From a virus (lineage: Duplodnaviria > Caudoviricetes): DNA of 64,000 bases. The DNA is taken from positions 201,896 to 265,895 of the IMG/VR virus record IMGVR_UViG_3300049988_000245. One strand, given 5' to 3'. A program made the translations under genes and the position numbers. Of the stretch, positions 15,096 to 59,953 are shown piece after piece (position 1 is the first letter of the stretch; every line of letters starts with the position of its first letter). The notes under the pieces were generated by a model. That model did not search any database, was not told the origin of the DNA, and saw only the letters and a program-made list of their open reading frames with translations.

Positions 15096-15406
15096 TCACG
15101 CATCGCGAGGTTCGCGTGACCATCACGGAGAAGACATATGATCCCGAGGATGGTGGCCCCGTGTTTATCCTCCGCGTAGGATTGTCCCGCCGCCGGGGGT
15201 TCAGTACGATTCTGTACGAGAATTTAGAGGAACGGGATTCTGCGTCGATCTCCCCCGCGATACGGGATTGGTGCGTCGAACAATGGGCGGGGGAAGAGTT
15301 CTCCTTCAATCCGTTCGATGATGAAGAGGTGTGGGTCCGGAGCTTTGCCCAGGCGATGGCGTTCAAGCTGAGGTGGGACGGGAAACACGCCAGTGCTGGA
15401 ACTTAA
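15092..15406 (+). CDS. FKLRW-motif family protein
   Basis: AIRDWCVEQW...VWVRSFAQAMAFKLRW. Confidence 0.85.
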   Translation: MITHREVRVTITEKTYDPEDGGPVFILRVGLSRRRGFSTILYENLEERDSASISPAIRDWCVEQWAGEEFSFNPFDDEEVWVRSFAQAMAFKLRWDGKHASAGT

Positions 15407-15680
15407 GATCGTTATCCACGAGAAGGTCGCACCCGGATCGTTCCCGATCGAGGTTCGCCTTGATCTGACGGACGAATTCTTTATCAAATCCGGGTGGAGA
15501 AACACCATCCATGCTCAGCAACACATGACCGATTGGTGTCGCGAACGCTGGGGCAAGACCACGGGCGAGACCTATACGCTCGAAGAGGCCCGATGGATGT
15601 TTGTCGGTAAGCGGTTCTACGTCCGCACCGAGGCCCAGGCGATCGAGTTGAAGATGCGGTGGCACGGGGCGACGCCGTGA
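15393..15680 (+). CDS. FKLRW-motif family protein
   Basis: MTDWCRERWG...FYVRTEAQAIELKMRW. Confidence 0.85.
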   Translation: MLELKIVIHEKVAPGSFPIEVRLDLTDEFFIKSGWRNTIHAQQHMTDWCRERWGKTTGETYTLEEARWMFVGKRFYVRTEAQAIELKMRWHGATP

Positions 15681-33590: not shown

Positions 33591-33868
33591 TGAACCGATA
33601 CGGGCGCAGGCGCTACGCCCGGAGCCCGGAGAACGGTATCGCGACGTTCTACCGGGAGCCGGAGGAGGAGGATTACCCAAATTGGGTGATCCGCTGCCGC
33701 TACGTGATCTATCCGGCAACCGATGGCGGGCGGGACGAGCCAAGCTGTCCGGTGAGCGTGGAGATCGAGTGGCCCGATAATGTTGGGGAGTCCGTTCAGG
33801 AAACTTTGGACTTCGCTGATCGGATCATCGAACAGCACGAGTGGTATGAAGGCCCCGATGACGACTGA
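33587..33868 (+). CDS. Hypothetical protein
   Basis: Translationally coupled ORF. Confidence 0.7.
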   Translation: MMNRYGRRRYARSPENGIATFYREPEEEDYPNWVIRCRYVIYPATDGGRDEPSCPVSVEIEWPDNVGESVQETLDFADRIIEQHEWYEGPDDD

Positions 33869-34130
33869 GCGAACAATCTATCTGAAACTTGATCCGCTCC
33901 CCCCAGGTTCAGCGCGCGGTGCGGCGCAATCCAAGATACTGCAATTTGTCTTCGACCTGGGTGTGTACGCGGAGCGAACCCCGTTCACGGTTCTCCGGGT
34001 GGAGCAGGTTGATTGGTGGGTCACTGCGATTATAATCAACGCGGATGACAACATAGCGTATCTCGCACTTCGATTGAAGTACGGTGAGATGATGATCGAC
34101 TTCCTTCAAGCTGAGAACGAGATTTTCTGA
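33858..34130 (+). CDS. Hypothetical protein, divergent FKLRW-like
   Basis: AIIINADDNIAYLALRLKYG. Confidence 0.7.
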   Translation: MTTERTIYLKLDPLPPGSARGAAQSKILQFVFDLGVYAERTPFTVLRVEQVDWWVTAIIINADDNIAYLALRLKYGEMMIDFLQAENEIF

Positions 34131-34651
34131 TGAAGATCGAATACAAGACCGGCGACCTCCTGGCCGGACCCGAGCGGTTCATCTGCCACGGTTGCAACGC
34201 TCAAGGGGTGATGCGTTCGGGAATCGCCGCTCTAATTCGAGACATCTACCCGAACGCCTACACGACATATCGGGCGCATTATGACGAGCACGGCCTCGCG
34301 TTGGGGCACACGATCTTCGTCGAATGCAAGCCCACGGATTCCCGTTACCGCGCTCGCACGGTGATCGACGCGATCACGCAGGAGCACTATGGGCGCGATC
34401 CCAACCGGGTCTACGTCAGCTACGAGGCGATCGAGAAGGCCATCAAGAAGATCGACGACGAGGCGCGCCTTCGCCAGGAGACGCCGTCCCGCGCGCGCAG
34501 CCATGGCCTGATCGAAAGCGTTGGTTTTCCGCTGATCGGTGCCGGACTGGCCAATGGGTCGTGGAAAATCATCTCATCAATCATCGAAGAGCATTCCACC
34601 GACTTCCAGCCGGTCGTCTACCTGTTCGACGGAGTCATGCCGACAACATGA
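34130..34651 (+). CDS. Macro domain protein (Poa1p/DarG-like ADP-ribose processing)
   Basis: IEYKTGDLL...HGCNAQGVMRSGIA...GFPLIGAGLANGSWKII. Confidence 0.92.
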   Translation: MKIEYKTGDLLAGPERFICHGCNAQGVMRSGIAALIRDIYPNAYTTYRAHYDEHGLALGHTIFVECKPTDSRYRARTVIDAITQEHYGRDPNRVYVSYEAIEKAIKKIDDEARLRQETPSRARSHGLIESVGFPLIGAGLANGSWKIISSIIEEHSTDFQPVVYLFDGVMPTT

Positions 34652-34654
34652 TTC

Positions 34655-34720
34655 ATGTTGGCGGAGATTGTTTTCTTCGACCCGAACGAAGAGTTGGAGT
34701 TCAAGCTCAGATGGGGATGA
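34655..34720 (+). CDS. 21-aa micro-ORF consisting only of the FKLRW motif
   Basis: MLAEIVFFDPNEELEFKLRWG*; same frame as the macro gene (TGA TTC ATG); ATGA overlap with the next gene. Confidence 0.65.
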   Translation: MLAEIVFFDPNEELEFKLRWG

Positions 34721-35019
34721 CGTTCAATCTAAGCGTGAATCACGCTGCAATGATCCTGCCGGACTTGCCCATTAAGGGTGGAGCCGACATTTCTCCAAAA
34801 ACAAATATTATCCTGACCGTTCTGGTAACAGCCGCTCGACGCAGTGGCGACTTCGATCTAAGGCGGGATTTCGAATCGATCCAGGGTTCGGCTACCATCC
34901 TGAACGAGGATATCGCGACGTGGCTGGCCGAGCGGGGGATCACCTATATTCTGGGAAAGATGGACATCACCATCCACGACGATGATCAGGCGATGGAGTT
35001 CAAGTTGCGGTGGCTTTGA
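34717..35019 (+). CDS. FKLRW-motif family protein
   Basis: DIATWLAERG...ITIHDDDQAMEFKLRWL; start at the ATGA overlap with the micro-ORF. Confidence 0.85.
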   Translation: MTFNLSVNHAAMILPDLPIKGGADISPKTNIILTVLVTAARRSGDFDLRRDFESIQGSATILNEDIATWLAERGITYILGKMDITIHDDDQAMEFKLRWL

Positions 35020-58502: not shown

Positions 58503-59953
58503 TATCCACCGGTCCTTCCGCGCACGTTCCCGGCACCTCTATAAGAAATATGCAAATGGTCACTTTCGATTAGAGCCCATCCACCGGGCTGAGAATTTAC
58601 ATAATTCGCAATATTTCGAACTTCACCCGAACTCATATTTCTAGTTCTGAGATCGACTGCGTCCGATGGCGCATTGATATTCCAATTGTGATCGGAATTC
58701 TGGCCATGCTTCTGTTGGTCGGAGTTGCCAGATGTGACAAACTGTGGTCCGAACTTGCCCTCGACCTTATTGAGCAGACCCGACATACCGTTCGAAAGCC
58801 CATTACGATCGTTTCGGCGATCGCCTGCCTTGGTCGGTGCGTTTGCTGTTGTTTTAGTTTGTTCTTGAGACTTTTCTTTCGACAACGAGGACTGCTGCGG
58901 ACCCTTGGCGTCGGTGATCTTGTCGGAGTTTCGAGTGTGCTCCTTGGCGTTCTTCGAATCCGTACCGTCCGTGGTGGTCGTGCGATTCCCCTTGGTCTCG
59001 TGCGTGTGATCGCCCTCGGTCGCATGGGTGCTGTTCGAGGTCGCACGGGTATGGTGGTTCTCGGCCTGCGAGCGATGCTCCTTCTCGGTGTGTGAGTTAA
59101 TGCCGCCCTCGGCACGCATGTTGATGGTGCCCTTGGAGTACATGTTGATTCCCTCATCGGAAATCTCCATCCAAGAATTGCCCTTCTTGGAGATCATGTA
59201 GATGTATCCGGTGGTCTCATGGAGGAGTAGCTGCACACCGCTGCGCGTGCGCAAGCGGATGAACTCGTTCTTCTCTTCCTCGTCGATATGGATATTATGG
59301 CCACGTGGGGTGGACAGACCATAGACCTTCGACGGCGCTTCACGGCGCGCACTTGACGTACCTGGGCCGCGCTCCGCGTCCGTGAATAGGCCCTGCTCAC
59401 GAAGGCCCTCGTACAGGGGCTCGAAGATCGGGCGCTTCGGGTCCCAATATTTCGATGCGTTCTCGTCGTCCTTTCGGTTGTACTCGCACACCGGAGGCAG
59501 GTTGAGCTTGTTCACGGAATCGTCCGTGGACAGGTTCAGCGCAACGCCCGGCACCATGTGGTTCATGAACTGCTGATACAGACAGCCGAACCAGAATCCG
59601 CGCGTCGTGTCACCGTTGGCAAAGCACACGAGCACTTCATTGTTCAGGTCTGGCGGGACCGCCCAGAATCCATAGGAAATCTGCGTCCCCGACATTTTCT
59701 TTGCTTCTTCGCCTGACTCCTTGTTGTTATCAAGGTTTGTTGCGCCTGCGAACGGAGAAGCGTACGAAACGACGTACCAAGACTGCTCGCTCTCGGGATC
59801 ACCGCCGAACTCCGGGATGTACACGGACAGGCGGCCCATACGCTGGGGATCGACATTGCCCTTGACGATGCCCACAAAGATTCCGGTTTCTCGAATACGA
59901 CCACCAGCCGAATCCGATTTAACCGTATCCGGAGTGCGGTTAATAGAAGCCAT
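58502..59953 (-). CDS. Baseplate spike/hub, gp5/VgrG-like, with C-terminal Zn-peptidase-like domain
   Basis: VGIVKGNVDPQRMGRLSVYIP OB-fold; PPDLNNEVLVCF; beta-helix repeats; SDH...DAVDLR...HLHISY. Confidence 0.88.
   Translation of the reverse strand: MASINRTPDTVKSDSAGGRIRETGIFVGIVKGNVDPQRMGRLSVYIPEFGGDPESEQSWYVVSYASPFAGATNLDNNKESGEEAKKMSGTQISYGFWAVPPDLNNEVLVCFANGDTTRGFWFGCLYQQFMNHMVPGVALNLSTDDSVNKLNLPPVCEYNRKDDENASKYWDPKRPIFEPLYEGLREQGLFTDAERGPGTSSARREAPSKVYGLSTPRGHNIHIDEEEKNEFIRLRTRSGVQLLLHETTGYIYMISKKGNSWMEISDEGINMYSKGTINMRAEGGINSHTEKEHRSQAENHHTRATSNSTHATEGDHTHETKGNRTTTTDGTDSKNAKEHTRNSDKITDAKGPQQSSLSKEKSQEQTKTTANAPTKAGDRRNDRNGLSNGMSGLLNKVEGKFGPQFVTSGNSDQQKHGQNSDHNWNINAPSDAVDLRTRNMSSGEVRNIANYVNSQPGGWALIESDHLHISYRGAGNVRGRTGG

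What the first reader, a model, noticed from the sequence alone, without database searches (positions are those of the whole stretch)
34649..34720. 21-aa motif-only micro-ORF in frame behind the macro-domain stop codon
Seen: ...ACA TGA TTC ATG TTG GCG...TTC AAG CTC AGA TGG GGA TGA encodes MLAEIVFFDPNEELEFKLRWG, exactly the family's terminal strand-helix and nothing else. It is in the macro gene frame and ATGA-coupled to a full FKLRW gene. Inference: it is a minimal functional peptide (showing the motif acts autonomously, for example as a competitor), or a readthrough tag appended to a fraction of macro protein, or a truncated relic. The first two would identify the motif as a portable targeting signal.
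Basis: partly seen in the sequence, partly recalled or inferred. Interest (0 to 1): 0.7.

Follow-up and report, generated by a model that had tools for sequence, protein, structure and literature searches.

The report
Leftover tail of a deleted phage gene
The 21-codon reading frame behind the macro gene is the leftover end of a 90-codon gene that lost its middle in a 200-base deletion; it is an ordinary gene remnant, with no sign that it is a free-acting peptide or a tag added to the macro protein.

Summary
The macro gene (34130-34651) ends in TGA. After one codon (TTC), ATG 34655 opens a 21-codon frame (to 34720) that spells only the family's terminal strand-helix. It is in the macro frame and overlaps the next paralogue.

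Comparison with relatives explains it. A relative (L018) has a complete macro 3' end whose stop overlaps (ATGA) the start of an intact 90-aa family gene. The last 21 residues of that gene are the orthologue of the micro-ORF (15/21 identical, same junction to the next gene). The window equals L018 minus 200 nt, which is codons 3-69. The old start ATG (34648) survives.

Because 200 is not a multiple of 3, the tail slid into the macro frame, and the old start is now in frame with the downstream gene. A structure model puts the 21 residues as the last strand and helix of a beta-alpha-beta-beta-alpha domain.

Of the listed macro homologues, none of the 11 whose sequences I read carries the tail. 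No opal suppressor tRNA is present.

Of 93 family hits in the 266-kb phage contig, only two are tail-only; the other has no ATG. The last 24 nt, which hold the next gene's GGAG and start codons, are conserved; the first 42 nt are not.

Verdict: truncated relic. Earlier notes of this scan had already described the family on other windows of the same genome.

The parts
34130..34651 (+). Macro-domain gene, 173 aa, complete; stop TGA at 34649-34651
   Evidence: Pfam PF01661 E 1.4e-5 and phrog_335 E 2.5e-35. There are 1054 homologues; the listed ones are mostly 146-181 aa, and those read end at the same C-terminal ...FQPVVYLFDG.MP...
34648..34654 (+). ATGATTC: the surviving start codon and first 7 nt of the ancestral 90-codon family gene. 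It overlaps the macro stop (ATGA). It is now in frame with the downstream gene.
   Evidence: L018 has ATGATCC at the same place as the start of its intact 90-aa gene. The frame from 34648 is open to 35019.
34654..34655 (+). Deletion junction: 200 nt of the ancestral gene (L018 131-330, codons 3-69) are missing here; 2-nt microhomology (TC).
   Evidence: Window 34526-34654 aligns to L018 2-130, and window 34655 onward to L018 331 onward.
34655..34720 (+). The micro-ORF: codons 70-90 of the ancestral gene (internal Met70 to stop), which form beta3 and alpha2 of the family domain.
   Evidence: 15/21 residues are identical to the L018/L016 tail. HMM positions 88-105 only. The model of the intact orthologue has E73-76 and H79-89.
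34696..34699 (+). GGAG, the likely Shine-Dalgarno of the downstream gene, 11 nt before ATG 34711; it lies inside the micro-ORF.
   Evidence: Read from the sequence. It is identical in L018/L016, and the last 24 nt of the relic differ at 1 position against 17 of 42 before them. Its role as a ribosome-binding site is inferred.
34711..35019 (+). Downstream intact family paralogue, 102 aa (alternative start ATG 34717, 100 aa).
   Evidence: Called with this start on three identical contigs. Orthologues start MGM in L016 and L018. Family HMM E 1.8e-13.
34648..35019 (+). Possible 123-aa N-terminally extended form of the downstream gene, created by the deletion (old start + 19 frame-shifted codons + downstream gene).
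   Evidence: The frame is open. Whether it is used is not known; being in frame and open has a chance probability of roughly one in six (my estimate).

Best explanation
The micro-ORF is the 3' remnant of a full-length member (about 90 codons) of the phage's F[KR][LM]RW small-protein family. That gene once lay between the macro gene and the next paralogue. A 200-bp internal deletion removed codons 3-69. The old start codon, which overlaps the macro stop, remained. Because 200 is not divisible by 3, the old start was put in frame with the downstream gene and the surviving tail was shifted into the macro frame. The tail begins with what used to be an internal methionine (Met70), so it reads as a 21-codon ORF. 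The peptide is only the last strand and helix of a five-element domain and has no job of its own. The 3' third of the remnant is kept because it carries the ribosome-binding site and start codons of the downstream gene. Ribosomes leaving the macro stop may well run over it, but that is incidental. Shown: the origin by deletion, the position in the fold, and the absence of fused or free-standing counterparts. Inferred: the lack of peptide function and the reason for retention.
For: (1) L018 has the intact arrangement: the macro C-terminus ...DGKMPTT stop is overlapped by ATG of a 90-aa gene ending ...YQLMLCEIIFANPNDEMEFKLRWG, followed by the 103-aa orthologue of the downstream gene with the same overlap. 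(2) Window 34526-34654 aligns to L018 2-130 and window 34655 onward to L018 331 onward, so a 200-nt gap separates them; ATGATTC in the window matches ATGATCC at the ancestral start. (3) The AlphaFold model of the intact orthologue with 68 paralogues gives E40-43, H50-62, E67-70, E73-76, H79-89, with pLDDT 84-89 over the last 40 residues; the relic is residues 70-90. (4) The HMM search of all frames of the contig gives 93 hits. All but two cover at least about 40 residues of the domain. The two tail-only hits are this one and G000 92322-92399(-), which has no ATG and lies in intergenic DNA. (5) In a 1.84-billion-protein library the family profile finds 3120 representatives; in the best 150 the match always spans at least profile positions 48-90. 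(6) Divergence from L018 is 17/42 nt in relic codons 1-14, against 104/413 in flanking coding DNA (binomial p 0.02) and 1/24 in the last 24 nt. The same 21-residue segment of the neighbouring intact paralogue differs at 1 residue, against 6 in the relic. (7) No SD-like sequence lies within 5-13 nt of ATG 34655; the nearest GGAG is 20 nt away.
Against: The relic is still open, keeps an ATG and sits 3 nt after a translated gene's stop, so it is probably translated at some level. Its non-synonymous divergence from L018 (pN 0.19) is far below the saturated synonymous divergence (pS 0.76). It is close to that of the intact neighbour (0.155). This means either that the deletion is recent relative to the split or that some constraint remains. 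With 21 codons and one informative relative the test has little power. No closer relatives were found, so the age of the deletion is unknown. All four assemblies of this lineage are identical.
Confidence: 0.8

Rival explanations
1. Relay ORF. The remnant is kept because translating it matters in cis. Ribosomes that finish the macro gene restart at ATG 34655 (3 nt on) or ATG 34648 (overlapping) and are carried to the downstream gene's start, preserving the translational coupling the array had before the deletion. On this reading the peptide itself is irrelevant.
For: About half of the family genes in the contig end in TGATG or ATGA overlaps with the next gene, so coupling is the normal layout of these arrays. 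The micro-ORF stop overlaps ATG 34717 and lies 7 nt after ATG 34711. Both possible restart codons sit at or 3 nt after the macro stop.
Against: The downstream gene has its own GGAG at a usable distance. The local hairpin over GGAG and the ATGs is weak (-10.8 kcal/mol, z -0.9) and is not kept in L018, so nothing indicates that the site needs unmasking. Relic codons 1-14 diverge faster than the flanks, but a relay needs only an open frame, so this does not discriminate.
Confidence: 0.12
2. The deletion created a new proteoform. The old start ATG 34648, still coupled to the macro stop, now reads through 19 frame-shifted codons straight into the downstream paralogue and gives a 123-aa protein. The micro-ORF is then just the other frame of that leader.
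For: The frame from 34648 is open to 35019. ATG 34648 has the same ATGA overlap with macro that serves the intact gene in L018. GGAG 34631-34634 lies 13 nt upstream.
Against: Being in frame (1 in 3) and free of stops over 19 codons is expected by chance about one time in six (my estimate). Orthologues start at MGM. The leader has no counterpart elsewhere. Nothing shows that it is made.
Confidence: 0.15
3. Functional free micropeptide. The 21-mer is made and acts on its own, for example by docking onto paralogues or their partner as a competitor.
For: The frame is intact with an ATG, placed where re-initiation is plausible. It keeps the most conserved family residues, F-K-L-R-W. pN is below pS against L018.
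Against: It is one strand and one helix out of a packed domain. No free-standing counterpart was found: the only other tail-only copy has no ATG, though proteins this short may be absent from the libraries searched. The orthologous position in relatives holds a full gene (L018), an unrelated 65-aa ORF (L015) or other genes (L017, L019). Its variable part diverges faster than the flanks. It has no ribosome-binding site of its own.
Confidence: 0.05
4. Readthrough tag. A fraction of ribosomes read the macro TGA as sense and append F-MLAEIV...RWG to the macro protein.
For: The tail is in the macro frame with one codon between, and the stop is TGA, the leakiest stop in bacteria (established knowledge).
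Against: The shared frame is a by-product of the deletion length (200 = 2 mod 3); in the intact arrangement the tail is in another frame. The base after the stop is T, which in E. coli gives efficient termination (established knowledge of tetranucleotide stop signals; not tested here). The contig carries two tRNAs with anticodon CUA but none for UGA. TGA ends 65 of 95 family frames, so it is a normal stop. The listed macro homologues are mostly 146-181 aa, and none of the 11 read has the tail.
Confidence: 0.02

Closest known systems
Gene remnants left by internal deletions in tandem arrays of phage multigene families (lineage-specific expansions in jumbo phages, e.g. the ~35 zinc-ribbon copies of Bacillus phage G; PMC7824862)
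   Same: A large, fast-turning paralogue family in a giant phage, with copies gained and lost locally. This element is the dead end of one copy.
   Different: The family here (ending F[KR][LM]RW) matches no Pfam or PHROG model. The remnant happens to keep a start and a stop, so it mimics a gene.
Translational coupling by overlapping stop/start (ATGA, TGATG), as in E. coli trpB-trpA and many phage operons (established knowledge)
   Same: The micro-ORF starts 3 nt after one stop and ends in an ATGA overlap with the next start. The whole family uses such junctions.
   Different: Here the short frame was not built as a coupler. It is what a deletion left, and coupling through it is untested.
Programmed UGA readthrough of the Q-beta coat gene giving the A1 protein (established knowledge)
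   Same: A phage gene ending in UGA is followed by an in-frame open stretch.
   Different: In Q-beta the extension is long, conserved and essential. Here it is 22 codons, is in frame only because of the deletion length, is absent from the macro homologues read, and follows a TGA-T stop.
Macro-domain proteins of jumbo phages (ADP-ribose derivative hydrolases; PMC7824862)
   Same: The upstream gene is a standard stand-alone macro domain of the size and C-terminus of its 1054 homologues.
   Different: There is no functional link to the tail. In relatives the gene after macro varies: a family gene, an unrelated small ORF, a membrane-like ORF, or a ClpP-like ORF.

Membership tests
F[KR][LM]RW small-protein family of this phage (undescribed; about 93 copies) | C-terminal motif F-x-F-[KR]-[LM]-R-[WF] within 1-2 residues of the stop | tested here: met
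   The peptide ends ...LEFKLRWG then stop; HMM positions 88-105, 18.4 bits.
F[KR][LM]RW small-protein family of this phage (undescribed; about 93 copies) | Whole domain present: first strand, W[LC]xE helix, hairpin strands, terminal helix (about 50 residues) | tested here: not met
   Only residues equivalent to 70-90 of the 90-aa orthologue are present. The first strand (E40-43) and the helix (H50-62) are missing, and of strand E67-70 only its last residue remains. The other reading frames upstream show no family match.
F[KR][LM]RW small-protein family of this phage (undescribed; about 93 copies) | Descent from a family gene (orthology to an intact member at the same locus) | tested here: met
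   L018 124-396 is an intact 90-aa gene at the same position, with the same flanks; its tail is 15/21 identical.
Programmed stop-codon readthrough extension | The extension is present, fused or in frame, in homologues of the upstream gene | tested here: not met
   The best 120 macro homologues are 146-181 aa (one is 269). None of the 11 whose sequences were read ends in the motif. In L018 the tail is in a different frame from macro.
Programmed stop-codon readthrough extension | A leaky stop context or a cognate suppressor tRNA | tested here: not met
   The stop is TGA followed by T. ARAGORN finds tRNAs with anticodon CUA but none with UCA. Actual readthrough frequency is not testable here.
Conserved functional small ORF (micropeptide gene) | Kept as an independent short ORF in relatives, with purifying selection | tested here: not met
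   No relative has it as a short ORF. L018 and L016 have a longer gene, and L015, L017 and L019 have other genes. Codons 1-14 are 40% diverged against 25% in the flanks.
Conserved functional small ORF (micropeptide gene) | Own ribosome-binding site, or evidence of translation | tested here: inconclusive
   No SD-like sequence lies 5-13 nt upstream of ATG 34655, but re-initiation 3 nt after the macro stop is possible. No RNA run holds the stretch, so there are no expression data.

The most novel reading that the evidence does not exclude
The remnant is translated by re-initiation after the macro stop. The free strand-helix peptide then inserts into, or competes with, the roughly 93 full-length paralogues (or their common partner), acting as a dominant-negative regulator of the whole family. 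This would show that the F[KR][LM]RW end is the family's interaction surface.
Probability: 0.04. Interest if true: 0.6.

Novelty: already known. Interest (0 to 1): 0.13.

Why it matters
For the micro-ORF itself it matters little: it should be annotated as a gene remnant, not as a gene, and should not be used to argue that the family motif is a portable signal. Two by-products are of modest use. First, the locus gives a dated-by-comparison example of how copies of this very large, undescribed family are lost: a short internal deletion that spares the 3' end carrying the next gene's start signals. Second, the model places the conserved motif as the closing helix of a compact domain, which bears on any future guess about what the family does.

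Tried and rejected
(1) Close relatives in IMG/VR. The macro protein, the downstream protein, a degenerate pattern for the tail and junction, and a degenerate pattern for the macro C-terminus gave nothing or only one distant megaphage.

(2) The tail/junction pattern in JGI metagenome contigs gave no match.

(3) Phage GenBank records: blastn of 2.1 kb gave only a 42-nt chance-like hit, and tblastn of the downstream protein gave nothing.

(4) Homologues of the intact 90-aa gene and of the downstream gene in the 5.8-billion set: only the proteins themselves and one 82-aa relative, which led to L018.

(5) Sequencing runs: no RNA holder is listed, so nothing can be said on expression. Four DNA runs laid as contigs showed only the same allele across the junction and no intact allele.

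(6) RNA structure hiding the downstream start. A hairpin over 34694-34727 appears in the window fold but is weak (z -0.9 for the 51-nt piece, -1.7 for 131 nt) and is not kept in L018, so it was dropped as evidence.

(7) The idea that the 65-aa ORF after macro in L015 is the matching 5' remnant of a family gene: no HMM or BLAST support.

(8) Foldseek of the domain model against the PDB: no match at E <= 0.001; the best partial match was the UreE C-terminal domain at E 0.36.

(9) Known domains fused to the family domain in ten longer members: none in Pfam.

(10) Literature search for the motif strings found only unrelated papers.

(11) Codon-based selection test: synonymous sites between the window and L018 are saturated (dS about 1 or undefined), so dN/dS on 21 codons is not interpretable.

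Full report
**What is there.**
- The window is the last 64 kb of a 265,895-bp IMG/VR virus contig, G000:C1:201896-265895.
- At 34130-34651 lies a 173-aa macro-domain gene (Pfam PF01661; phrog_335, E 2.5e-35).
- Its stop, TGA 34649-34651, is followed by TTC. Then ATG 34655 opens a 21-codon frame that ends at TGA 34718-34720 and reads MLAEIVFFDPNEELEFKLRWG.
- This frame is the macro frame.
- Its stop overlaps ATG 34717. Seven bases upstream lies ATG 34711, which is the start that gene callers chose for the next gene on three identical contigs, and which its orthologues conserve.
- Three contigs from other samples are 100% identical over 3.4-4.2 kb. A contig of a further leaf-metagenome run crosses 34562-34712 without a difference. 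The stop and the short frame are therefore not assembly errors.

**The family.**
- A motif scan and then an HMM built from 68 paralogues find 93 hits in the contig. This agrees with earlier notes of this scan on other windows of the same genome.
- Members are mostly 75-140 aa, lie in tandem arrays, and about half end in TGATG or ATGA overlaps with the next gene.
- Neither Pfam nor PHROGs has a model for the family. Ten longer members carry no known domain.
- A profile search of 1.84 billion representative proteins finds 3120 members at E <= 0.001. The best 150 are almost all stand-alone proteins of 63-120 aa in which the match runs from at least profile position 48 to the end.
- An AlphaFold model of the intact orthologue (see below), built with the paralogue alignment, gives a disordered N-terminus and then a compact strand-helix-strand-strand-helix unit: E40-43, H50-62, E67-70, E73-76, H79-89. 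pLDDT is 84-89 over the last 40 residues.
- Foldseek finds no significant match in the PDB.

**The decisive comparison.** The macro protein has 1054 homologues. The best 120 are 146-181 aa (one is 269), and the 11 I read end at ...FQPVVY..DG.MP.. like the window's protein; none has the family tail. I fetched the DNA around the nearest ones.
- **L018** is a 906-bp Logan contig found through the downstream gene's only relative. Its macro 3' end is complete (...DGKMPTT, stop). The stop is overlapped (ATGA) by the start of an intact 90-aa family gene at 124-396. The last 21 residues of that gene, MLCEIIFANPNDEMEFKLRWG, are the counterpart of the micro-ORF (15 of 21 identical). That gene is followed, with the same 10-nt overlap, by the 103-aa orthologue of the window's downstream gene, and then by the same S24-like gene.
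- **Window against L018.** Window 34526-34654 aligns to L018 2-130, and window 34655 onward to L018 331 onward. The window therefore lacks 200 nt, codons 3-69 of the ancestral gene. The junction shares only 2 nt (TC).
- **The old start survives.** ATGATTC at 34648-34654 corresponds to ATGATCC in L018.
- **Why the frames look as they do.** Because 200 is 2 mod 3, the surviving tail moved from the -1 frame into the macro frame. The old start moved into the frame of the downstream gene, giving an open 123-codon frame from 34648 to 35019.
- **Why it reads as an ORF.** The ATG of the micro-ORF is simply Met70 of the ancestral protein, which L018 and L016 also have.

**Other relatives.**
- **L016** is a contig of an NCBI MAG labelled Verrucomicrobiaceae. 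It is 100% identical to L018 over 755 nt but lacks about 150 nt: the last 40 macro codons plus the first 28 nt of the 90-aa gene. It may be a second, independent deletion at the same junction, or an assembly fault in the same data set. I could not tell which.
- **L015** (macro 72% identical, same upstream synteny) has a complete macro, then an unrelated 65-aa ORF with no family signal, then the orthologue of the downstream gene.
- **L017** and **L019** (63% and about 52% identical) have other genes after macro.
- The slot after macro is therefore variable. The tail is never fused to macro and never stands as a short ORF elsewhere.

**Is the remnant decaying or kept?**
- Synonymous sites between the window and L018 are saturated: dS is about 1.0-1.2 in the two flanking genes (0.37 in the S24-like gene further on) and undefined for the relic, where pS is 0.76. 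A codon test on 21 codons is therefore weak.
- Relic pN is 0.19, against 0.155 for the intact neighbour and 0.11 for the macro end.
- Split by position, codons 1-14 differ at 17 of 42 nt, against 104 of 413 in flanking coding DNA (binomial p 0.02, Fisher p 0.04). The last 24 nt differ at 1 position.
- Those last 24 nt, together with the GGAG at 34696-34699, hold the presumed ribosome-binding site and both candidate start codons of the downstream gene.
- The same 21-residue segment of the neighbouring intact paralogue differs at 1 residue, against 6 in the relic.
- This pattern fits relaxed constraint on the peptide and retained constraint on the start signals of the next gene. With one informative relative it is suggestive only.
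- A second tail-only fragment exists at G000 92322-92399 on the minus strand. It has no ATG and lies in intergenic DNA. This shows that such remnants arise in this genome.

**Translation.**
- ATG 34655 has no SD-like sequence at 5-13 nt; the nearest GGAG is 20 nt upstream.
- It lies 3 nt after a translated gene's stop, so re-initiation is plausible.
- So is re-initiation at the overlapping old start, ATG 34648, which would bypass the micro-ORF and give the extended downstream protein.
- No RNA run holds the stretch.
- A hairpin over the downstream start seen in one fold is weak and not conserved, so I do not use it.

**Readthrough.**
- The contig encodes two tRNAs with anticodon CUA but none for UGA.
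- TGA ends 65 of 95 family frames.
- The base after the stop is T, a strong termination context in E. coli (established knowledge, not tested here).

**Verdict.** Its origin by a 200-nt deletion is shown by comparison. That the peptide has no function is inferred from four things: its place in the fold, the absence of counterparts, the lack of its own ribosome-binding site, and the divergence pattern. I put 0.8 on this reading. The lower-ranked alternatives are a cis relay role for its translation (0.12), use of the old start to make an extended downstream protein (0.15; compatible with the relic reading), a functional free peptide (0.05) and a readthrough tag (0.02). Interest is low.

Noticed in passing
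L004:2598-2752 (G000 59598-59752), minus strand: Two tandem tRNA genes with anticodon CUA (amber-suppressor type; ARAGORN labels them tRNA-Pyl). TAG still ends 8 of 95 family frames, so any TAG recoding would be partial or stage-specific.
   Followed up: partly
G000 91133-91526, minus strand (L005 about 15133-15526): ARAGORN reports a permuted tmRNA-like gene with tag peptide VNDNVAMEVRLAA. It was not checked against Rfam.
   Followed up: no
L005:16322-16399 (G000 92322-92399), minus strand: A second tail-only remnant of the family (...LDHPNLAFEFKIRFG, stop TAA). It has 25 open codons, no ATG, and lies in intergenic DNA between a 187-aa ORF and a 738-aa ORF, neither with a Pfam match.
   Followed up: partly
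L016:1-3795 (NCBI SEGU01000120.1, MAG labelled Verrucomicrobiaceae): This MAG contig is phage DNA (gp25-like baseplate gene, same gene order as the window). It is 100% identical to L018 except for a ~150-nt gap that truncates the macro gene and the start of the 90-aa gene. It is either a real variant or an assembly or binning artefact.
   Followed up: partly
window 33852-34130; L015:2621-3004; L016:5-388; L019:1585-1830 (minus): The gene just upstream of macro is conserved in all four relatives and carries a ...(A/G)LxLKYG-like segment followed by a variable extension. The family HMM does not match the two copies tested (window and L015), so it is a separate or very remote family that travels with macro.
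   Followed up: partly
L015:3665-3715: In L015 the ATGA junction between the 65-aa ORF and the family gene sits in a strong hairpin (-20.9 kcal/mol, z -3.9), a candidate translational-coupling structure.
   Followed up: no
P0180 (library protein, 1822 aa): The family profile matches six stretches in one 1822-aa protein. Several proteins of 140-230 aa have two stretches, so the domain also occurs as internal repeats outside this phage.
   Followed up: no
window 34009-34036, plus strand: A promoter-like site (TTGATT, 16 nt, TATAAT; 10 of 12) lies inside the gene upstream of macro, about 95 nt before the macro start.
   Followed up: no
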